DNA of 25,688 nt from the IMG/VR virus record IMGVR_UViG_2627853701_000015; one strand, given 5' to 3'. The position numbers and the translations under genes are program-made. The stretch is from a virus. Lineage: Duplodnaviria > Heunggongvirae > Uroviricota > Caudoviricetes. How positions within the stretch are numbered: the stretch's first letter is position 1; each line of letters opens with the position of its first letter. Shown piece by piece: positions 8,054 to 13,865 of the stretch. The notes under the pieces are model-generated. The model saw only the letters and a program-made list of their open reading frames with translations, was not told where the DNA came from and made no database searches.

Positions 8054-8601
8054 TGGCCCGAGTCACTCCAGACCAAGCGCTTATCAGTTTTAGAAATGCC
8101 CGTATTCTGTGGGCTGGACATAGTGAGAGCCGAAAAGCCGTTGAACAACAGATAGAATCACTCCTCACTGCCATGGAAAAACCAGCAGATTATGCTCGAC
8201 AGCTCGAATTACAGCGGGAACATCTGGATGTGCTGAAATGGCAAATTAACTGTGCTGCGCGCGAATGCATTTACTCGCAGCATCAACTGATGGAGGCCTG
8301 CACAGAAGACGCTCTCAGCAATTTTATGCAGGCGAATGGAGCAGCCCTGACATCTGCACTGGCTCCGTTCCTGAAGGGGCGCGGAGGGGTTGACGTTGCG
8401 TCCCGTATATTACGCAATGCTCTGGTTCGCCAGCTGGCAATAACACCGCCTGAAATTGCCGGGGATTATCGTATGATTCTGGATGAATCCGGTGTGATGC
8501 CTGACCCCATGATGGTTCGTGATTGCCAGAGCTCTTACACCCCTGCACAACAACTGCGCTTTCAGCAACGTCTGGATTACATTAACGGCATGCAGGAGTA
8601 A
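8050..8601 (+). CDS. psu: Psu-like polarity-suppression protein
   Basis: 183 aa; 'KWQINCAAR...FMQANGAALTSALAPFLKG...TPAQQLRF' resembles P4 Psu as I recall it; ATGA-coupled to the upstream gene. Confidence 0.6.
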   Translation: MMARVTPDQALISFRNARILWAGHSESRKAVEQQIESLLTAMEKPADYARQLELQREHLDVLKWQINCAARECIYSQHQLMEACTEDALSNFMQANGAALTSALAPFLKGRGGVDVASRILRNALVRQLAITPPEIAGDYRMILDESGVMPDPMMVRDCQSSYTPAQQLRFQQRLDYINGMQE

Positions 8602-8606
8602 TATTA

Positions 8607-8879
8607 ATGGCACTTAAATGTCCCGAATGCGGTACGACGGCACACGCCAGAACCTCCGCCTATGAAGCACCATCGGTTAAACGCTCATGGTATCAGTGCC
8701 AGAATCTTGAATGTTCCTACACATTTACCGCACTGGAAAGTGTGGATACGATAATCATGAAGCCCCGGCGCAATGAACAGGAATCAGAGAAAGCACAAAT
8801 GCCGGAAAAACAACAGCAAACTCTCAATCGCTATGGCTCCGCGTCAAAGCTGTCAAGCCGTCAGCAAATTCCTGTCTGA
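8607..8879 (+). CDS. Ogr/Delta-family zinc-finger late-gene activator
   Basis: 'CPECGTTAHARTSAYEAPSVKRSWYQCQNLECSYTF' is the C-x2-C...C-x4-C Ogr/Delta zinc-finger pattern; 90 aa, a single Ogr-like unit. Confidence 0.85.
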   Translation: MALKCPECGTTAHARTSAYEAPSVKRSWYQCQNLECSYTFTALESVDTIIMKPRRNEQESEKAQMPEKQQQTLNRYGSASKLSSRQQIPV

Positions 8880-8900
8880 TTAGCAAAAAAAGCCCACGTA

Positions 8901-8926
8901 ATCCCGGTCCAGTACTGGGATTTTTT
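8901..8926 (+). terminator. rho-independent terminator after the late operon
   Basis: Hairpin TCCCGG-loop-CTGGGA followed by TTTTTT, directly after the delta-like stop. Confidence 0.5.
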
Positions 8927-9232
8927 ACGCCTTTTCCCTGGCTGGCCTGAGAGCGCATGAGTGCATGTCTATAGCGCATGAAAACGCATGATTCTCATGC
9001 ACCATTTTTGACGCGAAAGCCCTTGTGTGGTGGCTTCTGAGACGATTTGCGGAATGCATGAAAACCAGTCTGTTAAGCGAAGCGAGCAGGCGTGGGGGGC
9101 TGCGCGCGCTAAGGGGTTAGATTATAAAATATCAAACGCCGGTGAGATCCATTATTGTGGAACCACCCGAAGGAAGTGTAGAGGCGAAAGTACCCAAAAT
9201 AATTTTGCAAATTATTTAGAAATGAACTGAGC

Positions 9233-9258
9233 GCTCGAAACGAAATATAATTTCGAGC
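9233..9258. repeat. inverted repeat at the 3' end of the hotspot operon
   Basis: GCTCGAAA-N10-TTTCGAGC between the hotspot operon end (9289) and the upstream module; no U-tract, so terminator function is uncertain. Confidence 0.3.
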
Positions 9259-9288
9259 ACCCCAATTAGCAGTTATATTTTTAATGTA

Positions 9289-9855
9289 TTAAACAGGATA
9301 AAAACCAGAGCTTCCATTCTTATTTAAGTTATGGATTTTATTTGCATCATTAATTTTTATTTGGAACGTCGGACCTTTATTCTCAAGAATTACAATCTGG
9401 AAATTATAGTCCCTTTTGATTAATGCGTGATAAAATGAATCACTGAGACTGACGCTATTAACATCCGATAGAGAACCCCCTCTATCTTTATCAAAGTGCG
9501 TCACTAATGGACTATCAAGCACAACAAATCCAATGAATGGATTCCCTTTTCTTGATAAAAATTCCGCAAAGCAAATGGTAAATATAGCATGCATTACTGC
9601 ACGGGTACCTTTACCAAACATTCCTCGGCGTTTCCCATTGATATTAAAGTCATATGTATCTTCGTCAAATCGCACTTTGTTATCTTTAGAATTTTCAAAA
9701 TTTATATCATTCAAAAAGTCTTGCATCGCTATTTCTATATCATACAAATCAGCTACTGTTAAGGAGTCAAAGTCCTCGGCGGAGTATTTAAGTTCGTCAA
9801 CATCATCTTCTTTATCTTGTAATGAAGATAGAATGCTATGTTTTGTGTGATCCAT
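9289..9855 (-). CDS. ABC/SMC-like ATPase, C-terminal head segment
   Basis: 188 aa; signature-like 'FGKGTRAV', Walker-B-like 'FIGFVVLDSP', D-loop-like 'THFD'; start ATG overlaps the upstream stop (TAATG at 9853-9857); ~28% GC. Confidence 0.55.
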   Translation of the reverse strand: MDHTKHSILSSLQDKEDDVDELKYSAEDFDSLTVADLYDIEIAMQDFLNDINFENSKDNKVRFDEDTYDFNINGKRRGMFGKGTRAVMHAIFTICFAEFLSRKGNPFIGFVVLDSPLVTHFDKDRGGSLSDVNSVSLSDSFYHALIKRDYNFQIVILENKGPTFQIKINDANKIHNLNKNGSSGFYPV

Positions 9856-10445
9856 TAAAAGATTGTCTTTATATTCATAAAGTGATTCAAGAGATGAATG
9901 TATTGTTTTATATTTTTATCTTCTAACGTCTTAAAATCACTTTTTTCTGATTGATAAATTTCATTAACATCATTTTTTCTTAACATAATTAATTCATGTT
10001 CGCGAACATTAGATCCGATTGATTCAATTAATCCTTTCAGCTGGCTTTTGATTTTCAATTTTTCTGCATTACACGACAAAAAACAATCATCATATGATAT
10101 TTCATTTTCTTTTTTTTGCGGTGTATTACAGAACTCACAATAAATATCTGCAAAATTATTTAAATAGAAATTCGCCTGTGATACAACATCTATTCTTTGT
10201 AGATCTATAAAGTATTGGTCTTTAAGAAGACTAAATCTTTCAATGAGTAATGATAAGTATTTTTCCCTGTCACTGATTGAATATAATTCATCACTTAACT
10301 CTTTTAATAATTGCTTCTTATCATCAAGTGCATCAACAATACCTTTCAATATATCTTTCGATGATTCAATATCTTGCTCTACTTTCTCAAGTTCTCTTGA
10401 AACAATGACTTGATCATATTCAGGATAAATTAATTGCGCTTTCAA
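9855..10445 (-). CDS. coiled-coil segment with Cys4 cluster; probably the central part of the same ATPase
   Basis: Charged heptad-like repeats; C-x2-C ... C-x3-C cluster (CEFC ... CFLSC) mid-segment; no in-frame ATG or RBS, and the frame continues upstream to a single TAA at 10476-10478 that ends the Walker A ORF. Confidence 0.45.
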   Translation of the reverse strand: MKAQLIYPEYDQVIVSRELEKVEQDIESSKDILKGIVDALDDKKQLLKELSDELYSISDREKYLSLLIERFSLLKDQYFIDLQRIDVVSQANFYLNNFADIYCEFCNTPQKKENEISYDDCFLSCNAEKLKIKSQLKGLIESIGSNVREHELIMLRKNDVNEIYQSEKSDFKTLEDKNIKQYIHLLNHFMNIKTIF

Positions 10446-10475
10446 TTCCTCATAAATATTTGCAATTTGATTTTT

Positions 10476-11108
10476 TTAAAAATATCTTGCTTTTTTATTT
10501 GGTTTTTCTGCTAAGGAGTTAGTATCATCTCTCTGAGTTAAAAGGAATTTAAATTCAGACTTTCTTTTTGTCTCCTCGCTAGGAATATCAGAAAGAATTA
10601 ACGACTTCTCAGTTAACACTCTTAATTCATCAATACAAAAAAATTCAAAAACATTATTAAGATTAAATTTATGAAGAGTATTACTTAAGTTTGTTCTTAC
10701 TTTAGCCTCTTTGAAATTCAACCTACCATAAAAGTATGATGAAAAACTCTTTTTAGACGAAGCACTTTTGGAAAAAACCATCAACAGATTAGCTTCACTA
10801 ACATTTTCAATACTCGAATCATATAATCTGTAATGGGCGCTATCCTGAAGAGACCTCTCAATTGTCATTACCCTACCTTGAAAATTAAATTCCAGATAGG
10901 CTAAATCATAACCTTGAGCATGATCGATATCTTTATTTTTTAGTTTTTCACTCCCTAATAAATATCGAATCAAATAATATATGTATGTTTTTCCAGAGTC
11001 AGAACCACCATATAAAATAGTCAATTTAGAACCAAATTCAATTATAGCATCTAATTTATTGAATCCGGTTACCTTTATTTTTCTGAACGTAAAAAAATTG
11101 TCATTCAT
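10476..11108 (-). CDS. ABC/SMC-like ATPase, N-terminal head segment (Walker A)
   Basis: 'FRKIKVTGFNKLDAIIEFGSKLTILYGGSDSGKTYIYYLIRYLLG' is the N-terminal strand plus P-loop pattern of RecF/SMC/Rad50-type ATPases; ATG at 11108 overlaps the upstream stop (ATGAATGA). Confidence 0.6.
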   Translation of the reverse strand: MNDNFFTFRKIKVTGFNKLDAIIEFGSKLTILYGGSDSGKTYIYYLIRYLLGSEKLKNKDIDHAQGYDLAYLEFNFQGRVMTIERSLQDSAHYRLYDSSIENVSEANLLMVFSKSASSKKSFSSYFYGRLNFKEAKVRTNLSNTLHKFNLNNVFEFFCIDELRVLTEKSLILSDIPSEETKRKSEFKFLLTQRDDTNSLAEKPNKKARYF

Positions 11109-11559
11109 AATTAAATTCCATATCATATTTGCCAATTTTATTTTTTATAATTGATTGCAACTGCTCATCAGGAATATCACTATATAACTTAACCACCAAA
11201 TTTATATTATGCTCCATCTGCGCAACATATTCATTATGTAGAGAATTTGTAAATGCATATGTTTTTTCAGAAGCTTTATATACAAAACCACGATGTGTAT
11301 AAATTTTTGAGGCTAGTTCATAGCCTTGCAACAAAGCCAATGATTCTAAAACAATCTCTCGTTTTAGGGCTAACTGAGCATCTCTACGGGGTATTGGAGG
11401 ATGAAGACTAATCTCTTCAGGTAAAAAATCCTTAAGATTTACTAAAATAAAATCAAAACAAATAAGCCGTTCAAGGCTTAATGAAGAAGGATAAATAGCG
11501 ACGAGCACTTTCGCCATTCGACATGCCACTTCTAAACTTGAATTATAAATTCTAACCAT
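11101..11559 (-). CDS. hypothetical small protein, middle gene of the hotspot operon
   Basis: 152 aa from the ATG at 11559, which overlaps the upstream stop (TAATG) and has GGTGAG just upstream; the ORF track extends it to a TTG at 11574. Confidence 0.5.
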   Translation of the reverse strand: MVRIYNSSLEVACRMAKVLVAIYPSSLSLERLICFDFILVNLKDFLPEEISLHPPIPRRDAQLALKREIVLESLALLQGYELASKIYTHRGFVYKASEKTYAFTNSLHNEYVAQMEHNINLVVKLYSDIPDEQLQSIIKNKIGKYDMEFNYE

Positions 11560-12176
11560 TATCTCACCGTCCAAATTACTTCACCATCATTAACCAAATG
11601 ATGGCATATTCCTTTTTTATCATTTGCTTCACATATTTTTGATAGTACTGAATGTGCAATTGGTGTCAGAACAGCCTGCTTCAAGACTGCATTACACCTA
11701 ATAAATGCATAATTATGGTCTTCATAAAAGACGGGTTCAATTGAAGATGAAATGTAACATTTCAATGCTTTGAATACATCATCTTTAAATACTTCGCGGA
11801 CAAAAACCTCAAGCGAAGATGCAAAATAAAAATCATTTCTACTATTATTAAAGTGTCGTCTGTATGGATCATCAAGCTCTAAGAAAGAACTATAAGTTTT
11901 ATTTCCATGCTCTGAATAGGCTTGAAGCAGTGCATTAACATATACAGACTCTTTTTTTGAATTGTATGTTGGAATTTCATTTGGAGGGATTCTCACGACA
12001 TACAGCTCGTTAAAGTACTTAAAATAAAGGTGTGTATTTGCAATATCATTTAAAATCAATGATAAGGGTAGAGAGTAAAAAATACTAAAATCAAAATCCT
12101 CAATATATTTTTTTATTTCATCATCTAATGGAATATCAATCTTTTTAGTTATTTTTTTGAAATTGCTGAATCCCAT
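11559..12176 (-). CDS. hypothetical protein; possibly the C-terminal part of the nuclease gene
   Basis: 205-aa ORF with no RBS, overlapping the upstream ORF by 28 nt across an A7 tract (12152-12158); a 1-nt change there would fuse the two frames into ~335 aa. Confidence 0.45.
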   Translation of the reverse strand: MGFSNFKKITKKIDIPLDDEIKKYIEDFDFSIFYSLPLSLILNDIANTHLYFKYFNELYVVRIPPNEIPTYNSKKESVYVNALLQAYSEHGNKTYSSFLELDDPYRRHFNNSRNDFYFASSLEVFVREVFKDDVFKALKCYISSSIEPVFYEDHNYAFIRCNAVLKQAVLTPIAHSVLSKICEANDKKGICHHLVNDGEVIWTVR

Positions 12177-12565
12177 GAATCAAGGACTGCTTTTTTAAGC
12201 TCGTTTTTATTTTTCAATAAATTAGAAAATGTAGTAGATAAATCATAGGGTGCCACAAAAAAGTACTTCTGAGGGATGGGATAATCACCATTCAGAGTAA
12301 AATAGATAAGTTTTCCAAACTCAACTACAACATCAGAGAACCCTAAACTTTTTTTGTACAGTTTGCATTGATAATTATCCCAAGAATAACCTTCTACGTT
12401 AGGATCCGATTTATATCCAACAACGTCTCTACCTTTATCTCCAGCTCCTCCCAAACGTTCGCTCCACGGGTAATCATCTGATTTACAGACAATAAGCCAA
12501 TCATGGACAAATACCTCCCATTGTTCATCATCCCATGTCAATATTTCCGAAAGTGGTTGAGACAC
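12149..12565 (-). CDS. Mrr-like PD-(D/E)xK restriction-endonuclease-fold domain protein
   Basis: 'WEVFVHDWL...GGAGDKGRDVVGY...YQCKLYKK' matches the Mrr catalytic-domain pattern (G-x-G-D-x-G-x-D then Q/E-x-K); GTG start with AAGGAG 7 nt upstream, 3 nt after the int stop. Confidence 0.55.
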   Translation of the reverse strand: MSQPLSEILTWDDEQWEVFVHDWLIVCKSDDYPWSERLGGAGDKGRDVVGYKSDPNVEGYSWDNYQCKLYKKSLGFSDVVVEFGKLIYFTLNGDYPIPQKYFFVAPYDLSTTFSNLLKNKNELKKAVLDSWDSAISKK

Positions 12566-12568
12566 AAA

Positions 12569-13657
12569 TTAACTCCTTTTTAGTCTTTCAAATATCAAAT
12601 TACTGTACCAGTCCATCATAGACTTCCTTCCACTAAAATATTGAGCATGGTTATAAGTCCCCCTAATAGAATTTTTATCTACATGAGCCAACTGGATTTC
12701 AATCCAAGCACTCTCAAAACCTTGCTCATGCAGGATTGTAGAAAGGGTATGACGAAAACCATGTCCAGTGACTTTTCCTCCATACCCAATACGCTTAATG
12801 GCTTGATTTATACTCGCTTCGCTCATTGGCCTATTCGGATCGTTCCGCCCTGGAAAAACATAACGATAGTTCCCTGTCATGATCTTGAGTTCATTGAGTA
12901 AATCTACCGCTTGAGATGATAAGGGCACAAGATGTGGCCTACGCATTTTCATCCTTTCAGCAGGAATTTCCCAAATAGCGTTATCCAGATCAAATTCTTG
13001 CCATAATGCCGCGCGTAATTCGATGGTTCTCACACCCGTAATCATCAGTAATTTCGTGGCTATCTGGACAAGCTTACTCCCGGAGTAACCCTCTAAGGCA
13101 CGTAGAAAATCAGGTATCTCATCAGCTTTTAGGAATGGGAAATGATTGGATTGGTGTACTTCGAGAGCGCTGGAGAGATCAGCCGCAGGATTGTACTCCG
13201 CCCTACCCGTTGCAATTGCGTAGCGAAACACCTCTCCCACAGGCCTTGTTCCGACATAAGGAAAAATGTCGTTCTTAAACGCTTCCATGATGTCTGATGC
13301 ATATCCCGCCGACCATTTAGCAGATTTAAGTTGATGCCACTCTCTGGCTATCTTTTCGAAGGCGTTCTCTGACTCTGTTTGCATAGCTAGCTTTTGCTCT
13401 TTTCGAACCTCACTAGGGTTCTTTCCTTCTGCCACAAGTTTTCGAGCTTCATCACGACGGGAACGAGCATCGGCAAGGGTGATCGTTGGGTAAACACCAA
13501 GCGAGATCATTTTGGGTTTGCCGGCATAGCGATAGCGGAACCGCCAACTCTTGCTTCCATTAGGTTCTATAAGTAATGACAACCCTAGCCCATCTCCAAA
13601 TGTATAGGCTTTAGCTTCAGGCTTAGCGCGGCGAATCTGCATATCGTTTAAAGGCAT
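12569..13657 (-). CDS. int: P4-type tyrosine integrase
   Basis: N-terminus 'AKPEAKAYTFGDGLGLSLLIEPNGSKSWRFRY', catalytic region 'GHGFRHTLST...AHVDKNSIRGTYNHAQY' (R..H-x-x-R...Y); directly downstream of a tRNA 3' end. Start set at the internal ATG (MPLND...); the ORF track extends to 13708. Confidence 0.9.
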   Translation of the reverse strand: MPLNDMQIRRAKPEAKAYTFGDGLGLSLLIEPNGSKSWRFRYRYAGKPKMISLGVYPTITLADARSRRDEARKLVAEGKNPSEVRKEQKLAMQTESENAFEKIAREWHQLKSAKWSAGYASDIMEAFKNDIFPYVGTRPVGEVFRYAIATGRAEYNPAADLSSALEVHQSNHFPFLKADEIPDFLRALEGYSGSKLVQIATKLLMITGVRTIELRAALWQEFDLDNAIWEIPAERMKMRRPHLVPLSSQAVDLLNELKIMTGNYRYVFPGRNDPNRPMSEASINQAIKRIGYGGKVTGHGFRHTLSTILHEQGFESAWIEIQLAHVDKNSIRGTYNHAQYFSGRKSMMDWYSNLIFERLKRS

Positions 13658-13709
13658 GTGTATAGGAATCCAGACCGAACAGGAACATATACACAATCCT
13701 ATACACATT

Positions 13710-13819
13710 CAGTACCGGATTCTACTGGATGGTTACGGACTACTATGGACTTAAAAGAATAAAAAATGTTATAAATCAGAGATTTTATGGACTAATACGG
13801 ACGTTTGAGGAAGTTGAGA
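13710..13819. repeat. att arm region with short direct repeats
   Basis: Repeated GGACTAC/TATGGACT/TACGGAC words between the int start and the tRNA core, as expected for integrase arm-type sites. Confidence 0.35.
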
Positions 13820-13865
13820 TGGTGCCGATAATAGGAGTCGAACCTACGACCTTCGCATTACGAAT
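13820..13865 (-). other. 3' 46 nt of a tRNA-Thr(CGU) gene: att core, not an intact tRNA
   Basis: Reverse complement TTCGTAATGCGAAGGTCGTAGGTTCGACTCCTATTATCGGCACCA has half the anticodon stem, CGU anticodon loop, T-arm GGTTCGACTCC, acceptor 3' strand and CCA; sequence 5' of it (>13865) is not tRNA. Confidence 0.7.

What the first reader, a model, noticed from the sequence alone, without database searches (positions are those of the whole stretch)
9853..12180. Three apparent interruptions in the hotspot operon: decayed system, sequencing artefacts, or genuinely split subunits
(a) The Walker A ORF and the coiled-coil ORF are in the same frame, separated only by one TAA at 10476-10478, and the coiled-coil ORF has no ATG or RBS. 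(b) The nuclease-domain ORF and the next ORF overlap by 28 nt across an A7 homopolymer (12152-12158); a 1-nt length change would fuse them. (c) The coiled-coil ORF and the C-terminal head ORF meet at TAATG (9853-9857) in different frames. Conserved genes elsewhere in the window are intact, which argues against pervasive sequencing error, but this is the most AT- and homopolymer-rich segment. Interruptions (a) and (c) both fall at domain boundaries, which fits either a natural split or recent decay.
Basis: seen in the sequence. Interest (0 to 1): 0.6.

Follow-up and report, generated by a model that had tools for sequence, protein, structure and literature searches.

The report
Decayed Lamassu defence operon in O157:H7
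The three "interruptions" are real mutations (two one-base deletions in runs of A and one stop-codon substitution) that have killed a known three-gene anti-phage system (Lamassu) carried by a P4-like satellite prophage of E. coli O157:H7; this is ordinary gene decay, not a sequencing error or a new split-subunit design.

Summary
The operon on the minus strand (12565 to 9289) is a short-type Lamassu (ABC-3C) system, lmuA-lmuC-lmuB. It sits in the int-psu hotspot of the P4-like prophage Sp2/CP-933I of E. coli O157:H7.

All three interruptions exist as described. Each is a single-base lesion relative to the closest intact operon, from Proteus mirabilis (89% nt identity; genes of 335, 152 and 606 aa):
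- (b) A 1-nt deletion at the TTTC-A7 tract (12152-12160) splits lmuA.
- (a) TTA (an invariant Leu) became TAA at 10477 in lmuB.
- (c) An A6-to-A5 deletion at 9913-9917 frameshifts lmuB. TAATG at 9853-9857 is only where the wrong frame ends, next to an internal Met codon.

Repairing three bases restores genes of exactly the Proteus lengths.

Lesions (b) and (c) are present in all about 308 complete E. coli genomes that carry the locus. TAA is absent from O55:H7 and from the early O157 branches 493/89 and LSU61. Individual strains carry further lesions.

Substitutions among E. coli strains are 10 nonsynonymous to 2 synonymous, which fits neutral drift. dN/dS against Proteus is 0.11.

Nearly all homologues are single chains. 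Verdict: stepwise pseudogenisation, partly annotated already in RefSeq. Interest is low.

The parts
12149..12565 (-). lmuA fragment 1: GTG start with an AAGGAG RBS. It encodes the N-terminal Mrr-like PD-(D/E)xK nuclease domain (GDKGRD ... QCK), 138 codons, and ends at a premature TAA (12149-12151).
   Evidence: PADLOC LmuA PDLC03852 positions 10-140, E 9e-41. G42 D43 G45 D47 Q66 C67 K68 are invariant in 20 homologues. 3 of 20 homologues hit Pfam Mrr_cat.
12152..12160 (-). Lesion (b): a 1-nt deletion in TTTC-A7. The intact relative has TTTCCAATAAAAT in frame. The ancestral E. coli form was TTTCC-A7 or TTTC-A8.
   Evidence: One of only two gaps in the 3.28-kb operon alignment with Proteus mirabilis. 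Adding one base gives a 335-aa LmuA, the same length as the Proteus protein. The allele is identical in 308/308 E. coli records.
11559..12176 (-). lmuA fragment 2: the linker and C-terminal domain CTD6, which in Lamassu docks LmuA on LmuB/LmuC. ATG 12176 is fortuitous; true coding in this frame begins at the A-run.
   Evidence: Pfam CTD6 PF20282 E 7.7e-30. PADLOC LmuA positions 141-333, E 3.9e-44.
11101..11559 (-). lmuC (ABC-3C middle component 2), intact, 152 aa. It has a TAATG junction with lmuA and an ATGAATGA overlap with lmuB.
   Evidence: Pfam MC2 PF20288 E 6e-30. PADLOC LmuC E 2.5e-36. Same length as the Proteus gene, 459 nt.
10476..11108 (-). lmuB fragment 1: N-terminal half of the ABC/Rad50-like ATPase head with Walker A GGSDSGKT, 210 codons, ending at the TAA nonsense codon.
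   Evidence: PADLOC LmuB PDLC03863 positions 3-199 of 610, E 8.4e-50. Pfam AAA_23. RefSeq start at 11108.
10476..10478 (-). Lesion (a): a nonsense codon, TTA (Leu211) changed to TAA by a T-to-A change at 10477.
   Evidence: Leu211, Lys212 and Gln214 are invariant in 8 aligned LmuB proteins. Proteus has TTA. O55:H7 DEC5D and CB9615 have TTA. Ten records carry exactly the TTA allele: 8 O55:H7-type strains plus O157 493/89 and LSU61.
9918..10475 (-). lmuB fragment 2, the in-frame continuation: ascending coiled coil, CxxC zinc-hook (CEFC) and most of the descending coiled coil.
   Evidence: PADLOC LmuB positions 231-412, E 1.6e-21. C324 and C327 are invariant in 26 homologues. Helices 233-318 and 339-439 with hook loop 319-338 in the AF2 model of the 87%-identical intact protein.
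9913..9917 (-). Lesion (c), the true site: an A5 run that is A6 in the intact relative (GAT AAA AA- TAT against GGT AAA AAA TAT). This 1-nt deletion is a frameshift at about codon 400.
   Evidence: The second of the two gaps in the operon alignment. The downstream frame reads KYKTIHSSLESLYEYKDNLLMDH, matching P0001 KKYKKIHLLLESLYEYKDNLLMDY. The repaired allele is found in 0 of 308 E. coli records.
9853..9857 (-). TAATG: the stop of the shifted frame (19 out-of-frame codons after the deletion), overlapping ATG 9855-9853. That ATG is the internal Met421 codon of lmuB, not a gene start.
   Evidence: Met at this column in P0001 and P0002, Ser/Thr in more distant homologues. Three-frame translation.
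9289..9915 (-). lmuB fragment 3: end of the descending coiled coil and the C-terminal half of the ATPase head (Walker B FVVLDS, GKGTRA). The frame is open from 9915 and the first ATG is at 9855.
   Evidence: PADLOC LmuB positions 428-608, E 5.1e-37. Pfam DUF3732. D532, S533 and P534 are invariant.
9229..9262 (-). Terminator-like hairpin directly after the lmuB stop; the likely end of the operon.
   Evidence: 13-pair stem followed by a T-rich tail.
12569..13708 (-). P4-type tyrosine integrase directly upstream. Together with delta/psu downstream it defines the P4 int-psu hotspot that holds the operon.
   Evidence: Sakai annotation: prophage Sp2, P4-like; intS, then the operon, then the ogr/Delta-like activator, psu and sid. 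Hotspot defined in PMC9122126.

Best explanation
The region is a pseudogenised short-type Lamassu (ABC-3C) anti-phage/anti-plasmid operon, lmuA(Mrr-like nuclease + CTD6)-lmuC(MC2)-lmuB(Rad50/SMC-like ATPase with a CxxC hook). It lies in the int-psu defence hotspot of the P4-like satellite prophage Sp2/CP-933I of the E. coli O55:H7/O157:H7 lineage.

In an intact system, by analogy with solved Lamassu complexes (inferred, not tested here), an LmuB dimer with LmuC holds LmuA inactive. Sensing of foreign DNA ends or replication intermediates then releases LmuA to oligomerise and cut DNA.

Here the system is broken by three independent single-base mutations:
- A 1-nt deletion at the TTTC-A7 tract separates the LmuA nuclease from its docking domain.
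- A 1-nt deletion, A6 to A5, lies in the descending coiled coil of lmuB.
- A TTA-to-TAA nonsense mutation follows the Walker A half of the LmuB head.

The two deletions are the kind made by replication slippage in homopolymers, which are dense in this 31% GC, horizontally acquired DNA (inference). They arose before the O55:H7/O157:H7 common ancestor. The nonsense mutation arose later, on the branch to typical O157:H7. Since then the locus has drifted neutrally and individual strains have added further frameshifts, a second nonsense codon, an IS insertion and deletions.
For: Identity of the system:
- PADLOC LmuA/LmuC/LmuB hits with E 1e-21 to 1e-50. The five fragments tile single-gene models end to end: LmuA 10-140 + 141-333 of 336; LmuB 3-199 + 231-412 + 428-608 of 610.
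- Pfam CTD6, MC2 and AAA_23.
- An AF2 model of the 87%-identical intact homologue matches solved Lamassu LmuB chains best: 9uxh_F, 9hqx_B, 9hqu_A, 9nyg_B, E 1e-12 to 3e-15.

Lesions:
- The operon-wide alignment with the intact Proteus mirabilis operon (89% identity) shows exactly two 1-nt gaps plus TTA/TAA.
- Repairing three bases gives ORFs of 1008/459/1821 nt, equal to Proteus, each with one terminal stop.
- The nonsense codon replaces an invariant Leu.

Not artefacts: 308/308 records share A7, 0/308 have the repaired A6, and 294 have TAA.

Order of events:
- O55:H7 strains, O157 493/89 and LSU61 keep TTA.
- In 493/89 lmuB is in two pieces only, 417 + 188 aa.
- O55:H7 has its own A6-to-A5 change at 9941-9946. 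CB9615 adds +T at 10644 and CAA-to-TAA at 10469. ERL04-3476 and RM19259 each have another homopolymer change. IS1203 is inserted in three strains.

Selection: dN/dS against Proteus is 0.10-0.12. Among E. coli copies there are 10 nonsynonymous to 2 synonymous changes, which rejects omega 0.11 (p = 0.0003) and fits omega 1.

Family norm: single-chain homologues throughout.

Prior annotation: the curated Sakai record already marks 11108-9289 as one pseudogene, ECs_0293.
Against: - No expression or activity data were available, so residual function of the fragments cannot be formally excluded.
- The A7 tract with a 0-frame A AAA AAA heptamer could give a little full-length LmuA by slippage.
- lmuC is intact and the LmuA region shows no extra lesions in the strains compared. 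This could merely reflect short elapsed time.
- Some strain-specific homopolymer differences, and the cluster of CB9615 singletons, could be assembly errors rather than real extra lesions. Removing CB9615 singletons leaves 7 nonsynonymous to 2 synonymous, still far from omega 0.11.
- No intact E. coli copy was found, so the ancestral E. coli sequence is inferred from a Proteus outgroup.
Confidence: 0.95

Rival explanations
1. Sequencing or assembly artefacts: the homopolymer lengths and the TAA are errors in this one sequence.
For: The segment is the most AT- and homopolymer-rich part of the window. Homopolymer miscalls are common. A few strains do differ at other A-runs.
Against: The same A7 is present in 308 of 308 independently sequenced complete-genome records. 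The A5 state is in all 308, none repaired. TAA is in 294 records, with a phylogenetically coherent split: O55:H7 and early O157 branches have TTA.
Confidence: 0.01
2. Genuinely split subunits: LmuA works as two polypeptides and LmuB as three, which assemble non-covalently, as Rad50 head halves can when co-expressed.
For: Breaks (a) and (b) fall near inter-domain linkers. TAATG could allow termination-reinitiation. Split SMC/Rad50 heads can assemble in vitro (general knowledge).
Against: - No homologue shows these boundaries. The family is single-chain and the closest operon is continuous.
- Piece 2 lacks an ATG or a usable RBS.
- The real break (c) is inside the descending coiled-coil helix and replaces 19 conserved residues with out-of-frame sequence.
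- TAA replaces an invariant Leu.
- Evolution since the breaks is neutral, with further lesions per strain.
Confidence: 0.02
3. Programmed recoding or phase variation: the A7 tract is a -1 frameshift or transcriptional-slippage site, or an ON/OFF contingency tract, that regulates LmuA. Stop readthrough and frameshifting would restore LmuB.
For: A AAA AAA lies in the 0 frame directly before TAA, and a -1 slip yields exactly the conserved ...SKKITKK... junction. The tract is perfectly conserved in E. coli.
Against: - There is no stimulatory structure downstream (MFE -8.7 kcal/mol, z -0.18).
- The slippery run is absent from the closest intact homologue, which reads CCAATAAAAT in frame, and homologues are single ORFs.
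- No A8 'ON' allele occurs among 308 records.
- The (c) site T AAA AAT is not a slippery heptamer.
- LmuB would need two further recoding events, one of which did not exist in O55:H7 or 493/89.
Confidence: 0.03

Closest known systems
Short-type Lamassu (LmuA-LmuC-LmuB; ABC-3C systems of Krishnan et al.), Mrr-effector subtype, as classified in Haudiquet et al. 2025 (PMC12663957)
   Same: Gene order lmuA-lmuC-lmuB. LmuB of about 600 aa with Walker A Gx4GKT, Walker B hhhhDS and a CxxC hook. LmuC is MC2. LmuA is an N-terminal PD-(D/E)xK/Mrr-like nuclease plus CTD6. The fold of the intact homologue matches solved LmuB chains.
   Different: Here lmuA is cut in two and lmuB in three by single-base lesions, so the copy is non-functional. 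Sequence identity to the structurally solved Lamassu proteins is too low for sequence-only detection.
Intact orthologous operon in Proteus mirabilis (locus L007 4543-7821; LmuB = P0001) and in Pantoea alhagi (P0002)
   Same: 89% nt identity over the whole operon. Identical gene lengths after repairing three bases. 93/91/88% aa identity for LmuA/LmuC/LmuB. It also lies in an integrase-bearing mobile element.
   Different: The Proteus copy is uninterrupted and has no A7 run at the lmuA site.
Defence-system hotspot between int and psu of P4-like satellites (Rousset et al. 2022, PMC9122126; 2026 follow-up PMC13586616)
   Same: Same position, directly after the P4-type integrase and before delta/psu/sid, in a P4-like element.
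   Different: The 2026 survey reports that recognisable defence pseudogenes are rare in P4 hotspots, under 1% of P4 pseudogenes, and favours swapping before inactivation. This locus is an in-situ decayed system retained through a whole clonal radiation.

Membership tests
Lamassu (short type) | LmuB: SMC/Rad50-like ABC ATPase of about 600 aa with Walker A Gx4GK[S/T] | tested here: met
   GGSDSGKT at residues 34-41 of the repaired 606-aa protein. PADLOC LmuB E 8.4e-50. G34, S36, G39 and K40 are invariant. Criterion from PMC12663957.
Lamassu (short type) | Walker B hhhhD[Q/S/T/E] in the C-terminal head half | tested here: met
   FVVLDS, with D532, S533 and P534 invariant in 26 homologues.
Lamassu (short type) | Short antiparallel coiled coil, optionally with a CxxC zinc hook | tested here: met
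   C324-E-F-C327 is invariant. The AF2 model of the 87%-identical homologue has helices 233-318 and 339-439 flanking hook loop 319-338. Best PDB fold matches are solved LmuB chains.
Lamassu (short type) | LmuC small middle component encoded next to LmuB | tested here: met
   Pfam MC2 6e-30 and PADLOC LmuC 2.5e-36. The ORF is intact at 152 aa.
Lamassu (short type) | LmuA: N-terminal effector domain plus conserved C-terminal domain | tested here: met
   CTD6 7.7e-30. PADLOC LmuA covers model positions 10-333 across the two fragments. Mrr-like GDxGxD...QCK motif is invariant. Mrr_cat Pfam hit in 3 of 20 homologues; the window's own N-domain has no Pfam hit at E <= 0.1.
Lamassu (short type) | Complete, uninterrupted genes (a functional system) | tested here: not met
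   lmuA has one frameshift. lmuB has one nonsense codon and one frameshift.
Lamassu (short type) | Protection against phage or plasmids | not testable with these tools
   Requires cloning the native and repaired operons and running plaque and plasmid-stability assays.
Programmed -1 ribosomal frameshift site (dnaX / IS3 type) | Slippery heptamer X XXY YYZ in the 0 frame | tested here: inconclusive
   Present at (b): A AAA AAA before TAA. Absent at (c): T AAA AAT.
Programmed -1 ribosomal frameshift site (dnaX / IS3 type) | Stimulatory downstream structure and conservation of the site among homologues | tested here: not met
   Downstream 86 nt fold no better than shuffles (z -0.18). The closest homologue lacks the run and reads straight through. 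117 of 120 homologues are single chains.
Naturally split multi-subunit ATPase | Same ORF boundaries with independent starts in homologous loci, and purifying selection after the split | tested here: not met
   No homologue shares the boundaries. Piece 2 has no ATG or usable RBS. 10 nonsynonymous to 2 synonymous changes among E. coli copies.
P4-like satellite int-psu defence hotspot | Cargo located between the P4-type integrase and delta/psu in an element with sid, psu, delta and alpha primase | tested here: met
   The Sakai record annotates prophage Sp2 as P4-like, with intS, the operon, the ogr/Delta-like activator, psu, sid and primase.

The most novel reading that the evidence does not exclude
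Loss of Lamassu was adaptive rather than merely tolerated. Lamassu/DdmABC-type systems attack plasmids and replicating phage DNA. Inactivation in the O55:H7/O157:H7 ancestor may therefore have removed a barrier or an autoimmunity cost, allowing the lineage to accumulate its many lambdoid (including Stx) prophages and its large plasmid. A weaker variant is that the A7 tract still yields traces of full-length LmuA by slippage. Nothing here tests either idea; the data only show that the first two lesions predate the lineage's radiation.
Probability: 0.1. Interest if true: 0.45.

Novelty: already known. Interest (0 to 1): 0.17.

Why it matters
It mainly settles an annotation question. In O157:H7 genomes, the five 'hypothetical protein / AAA ATPase / ABC-three component' ORFs between intS and delta of prophage Sp2/CP-933I are remnants of one three-gene Lamassu system. 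They should be annotated as two pseudogenes plus lmuC.

It is also a cleanly dated example of stepwise in-situ decay of a defence system inside a P4 hotspot. Two frameshifts predate the O55:H7/O157:H7 ancestor, a nonsense mutation followed on the branch to typical O157:H7, and further hits are strain-specific. This is of modest interest because a recent survey found such defence pseudogenes to be rare in P4 hotspots (PMC13586616).

The three-base repair gives a ready 'resurrection' construct for testing an Mrr-type short Lamassu.

Tried and rejected
- Sequence searches of the repaired LmuB, repaired LmuA and LmuC against PDB chains found nothing at E <= 0.01. A profile of 8 LmuB sequences reached only weak SMC/Rad50 head matches. 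Fold search was needed to reach solved Lamassu.
- An 81-nt allele query around TAA returned nothing because of low-complexity masking. It was replaced by an offset 99-nt query.
- A lead from PMC9122126 was checked in the supplements: a P4-hotspot system from O157:H7 FRIK944 that showed no activity. It is a different two-gene cytidine-deaminase cassette from another P4-like element, so it is not relevant.
- The promoter scan over the operon was not above the shuffle expectation, 20 found against 18.9 expected, so it is uninformative.
- No tRNA gene was found in the window.
- tblastn against phage records found only distant partial matches.
- The strain-variable A6 tract at 9941-9946 was considered as the cause of (c). 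It was rejected: typical O157:H7 has A6 like Proteus, and neither A5 nor A7 restores the frame.


Full report
**What is there.** The minus strand from 12565 to 9289 carries six consecutive ORFs directly downstream of a P4-type integrase. PADLOC profiles identify them as a Lamassu system.
- The first two ORFs match one LmuA model. Model positions 10-140 give E 9e-41 and positions 141-333 give E 3.9e-44, out of 336 positions.
- The third ORF is LmuC (E 2.5e-36).
- The last three match one LmuB model. Positions 3-199, 231-412 and 428-608 of 610 give E 8.4e-50, 1.6e-21 and 5.1e-37.
- Pfam agrees: CTD6 and MC2 of the ABC-three-component systems, AAA_23 and DUF3732.

So the five fragments tile two single-gene models end to end.

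**Where it comes from.** The segment is 100% identical to E. coli O157:H7 Sakai and EDL933. There it lies in prophage Sp2 (P4-like), between intS and the delta-like activator, psu and sid. This is the int-psu defence hotspot of P4-like satellites (PMC9122126). The curated Sakai record already annotates window 11108-9289 as one pseudogene, ECs_0293 'AAA family ATPase'. 308 of 5426 complete E. coli genomes carry the locus, all at 99% identity or more.

**Checking the observation.** All three features are present as described, with two corrections.
- (a) TAA at 10476-10478 separates two ORFs in the same frame. The next possible start is TTG 10445, with a GAGG only 2 nt upstream, and there is no in-frame ATG for about 155 codons.
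- (b) The 28-nt overlap spans an A7 run at 12152-12158. Only a +1 change fuses the ORFs; A6 meets TAA two codons later.
- (c) TAATG at 9853-9857 joins ORFs in different frames, but the downstream frame is already open from 9915.
- The operon has 30.9% GC against 46.2% elsewhere. It has three times the density of homopolymer runs of 6 or more.

**The intact relatives.** I rebuilt a 606-aa LmuB (TAA to Leu, plus 1 nt near 9906-9917) and a 335-aa LmuA (plus 1 nt in the A-run). The searches gave these results:
- LmuB: full-length, single-chain homologues of 594-612 aa in 26 of 37 hits. The best are Proteus mirabilis (606 aa, 87% identity, 100% coverage) and Pantoea alhagi (606 aa, 75%).
- LmuA: 117 of 120 listed hits are single chains of 324-381 aa. 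The short exceptions include the E. coli fragment itself.
- Plasmid records: homologues match in one piece, while the E. coli O157 copy needs three.
- The Proteus contig encodes LmuA 335 aa, LmuC 152 aa and LmuB 606 aa in the same order.

**The lesions at base resolution.** A whole-operon nucleotide alignment of the window with Proteus is 89% identical. It contains exactly two gaps, each a single base missing from the window, plus one nonsense substitution.
- At 12152-12160 the window has TTT-CAAAAAAAT against Proteus TTTCCAATAAAAT.
- At 9913-9917 the window has GAT-AAAAATAT against Proteus GGTAAAAAATAT.
- At 10477 the window has TAA where Proteus has TTA.

In the protein alignment this Leu, with the following Lys and Gln, is invariant. 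The frame downstream of 9915 (KYKTIHSSLESLYEYKDNLLMDH) matches the homologues. The last 19 codons of the middle ORF (NIKQYIHLLNHFMNIKTIF) do not.

Hence the ATG in TAATG is the internal Met421 codon. The TAA is simply the first stop met in the wrong frame. The real lesion (c) is an A6-to-A5 deletion about 60 nt upstream. Repairing the three bases gives ORFs of 1008, 459 and 1821 nt, exactly the Proteus lengths, each with one terminal stop.

**Artefact or real?** Short allele-specific queries against all complete E. coli genomes settle this.
- The A7 allele is identical in 308 of 308 records.
- The repaired A6 allele at 9913-9917 occurs in none.
- TAA occurs in 294 records.
- The TTA allele occurs in exactly ten: eight O55:H7-type strains, the sorbitol-fermenting O157 strain 493/89 and strain LSU61. 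By established knowledge of the stepwise O55:H7-to-O157:H7 model, these are the early branches.
- In 493/89, lmuB is in two pieces only, 417 + 188 aa.

The lesions are therefore real and inherited, and their order can be read off. Lesions (b) and (c) predate the O55:H7/O157:H7 ancestor. Lesion (a) arose on the branch to typical O157:H7.

**Decay continues.** Comparing six E. coli copies with Proteus as outgroup shows further lineage-specific lesions.
- O55:H7 has A6 to A5 at 9941-9946.
- CB9615 adds +T at 10644 and a second nonsense codon, CAA to TAA at 10469.
- ERL04-3476 has A7 at 9941-9946.
- RM19259 has A8 to A7 at 10110-10117.
- Three strains have IS1203 in the operon, and two records have partial deletions.
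- A metagenome-derived variant fuses LmuC to the coiled-coil piece by deleting the Walker A piece.

Point substitutions among the E. coli copies are 10 nonsynonymous to 2 synonymous. This rejects the long-term constraint (dN/dS 0.10-0.12 against Proteus) at p = 0.0003 and fits neutrality. Some singletons, especially in CB9615, may be assembly errors. Without them the ratio is still 7 to 2.

**Split subunits or recoding?**
- The AF2 model of the intact Proteus LmuB has mean pLDDT 85.8. It places residue 211 just after the head/coiled-coil linker. It places residues ~400 and 421 inside the descending coiled-coil helix 339-439. So (c) is not at a domain boundary.
- The best PDB fold matches are solved Lamassu LmuB chains, all single polypeptides.
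- The A7 tract does form an A AAA AAA heptamer, and a -1 slip there would give the conserved SKKITKK junction. Against this, there is no downstream structure (z -0.18). The run is absent from the closest homologue, and no A8 allele exists in 308 records. LmuB would in any case need two more recoding events.

**Mechanism.**
- Shown: the identity of the system, the three lesions, their fixation and order, and relaxed selection.
- Inferred from published Lamassu work (PMC12663957): the intact system would use an LmuB dimer with LmuC to hold the LmuA nuclease inactive until foreign DNA ends or replication intermediates are sensed.
- Consequence here: LmuA's nuclease is severed from its docking domain. 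LmuB stops after the Walker A half-head, without Walker B or the coiled coil. The system should therefore be inactive.
- The deletions are typical of replication slippage in A-runs (inference).

**Novelty and interest.** This is a dead copy of a known system, partly flagged as a pseudogene in RefSeq already. A small point of interest comes from a 2026 survey. It reports recognisable defence pseudogenes as rare in P4 hotspots and favours replacement before inactivation (PMC13586616). This locus is a clear, datable counter-example retained through a whole clonal radiation. Interest is low.

Noticed in passing
window ~13232-13234 (inside integrase ORF 12569-13708, minus strand): The window's P4-type integrase lacks 93 nt (31 codons, in frame) that are present in Sakai intS. 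In about 300 complete E. coli genomes a 121-nt query across the junction always aligns in two pieces spanning 214 nt, so none shares the deletion. It is either private to the window's source strain or an assembly artefact. It would probably disable the integrase.
   Followed up: partly
protein P0027 (Logan assembly); corresponds to window ~11140 joined to ~10470: A 344-aa product fuses LmuC in frame to the LmuB coiled-coil piece (…SIIKN|QIANIYEEL…). This implies a ~0.66-kb deletion of the Walker A piece between two TAAAAAAT microhomologies in some strain, which is another decay variant.
   Followed up: partly
records NZ_CP089270.1, NZ_CP089034.1, NZ_CP089032.1 (hits H1-H3): Three O157:H7 strains have an IS1203 (IS3-family) element inserted within the operon region; the match is split into two pieces spanning 4.76 kb.
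   Followed up: no
L008 (O55:H7 CB9615), aligned to window 10469, 10483, 10381 and 10644: CB9615 carries its own nonsense codon (CAA to TAA, at invariant Gln214) only 8 nt from the O157 TAA site. It also has a +T in a T7 run and two missense changes within 260 nt. This is either real independent decay or errors in an older assembly.
   Followed up: partly
window 9941-9946 and 10110-10117: Two other A-runs inside the already broken lmuB vary in length between strains: A5/A6/A7, and A8/A7. 19 of 308 records differ somewhere in 9875-9955.
   Followed up: partly
window 11559-11563 and 11101-11108: The genuine lmuA/lmuC junction is also TAATG, and lmuC/lmuB overlap as ATGAATGA. The spurious TAATG at 9853-9857 therefore mimics the operon's real coupling signals by chance.
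   Followed up: yes
L006/L007 (Proteus mirabilis contigs), 8100-13821: The intact Proteus operon also sits in a mobile element (rve transposase, DUF927 primase-like gene, phage integrase at the far end), but not in an obvious P4 int-psu arrangement. The same cassette seems to move between different element types.
   Followed up: no
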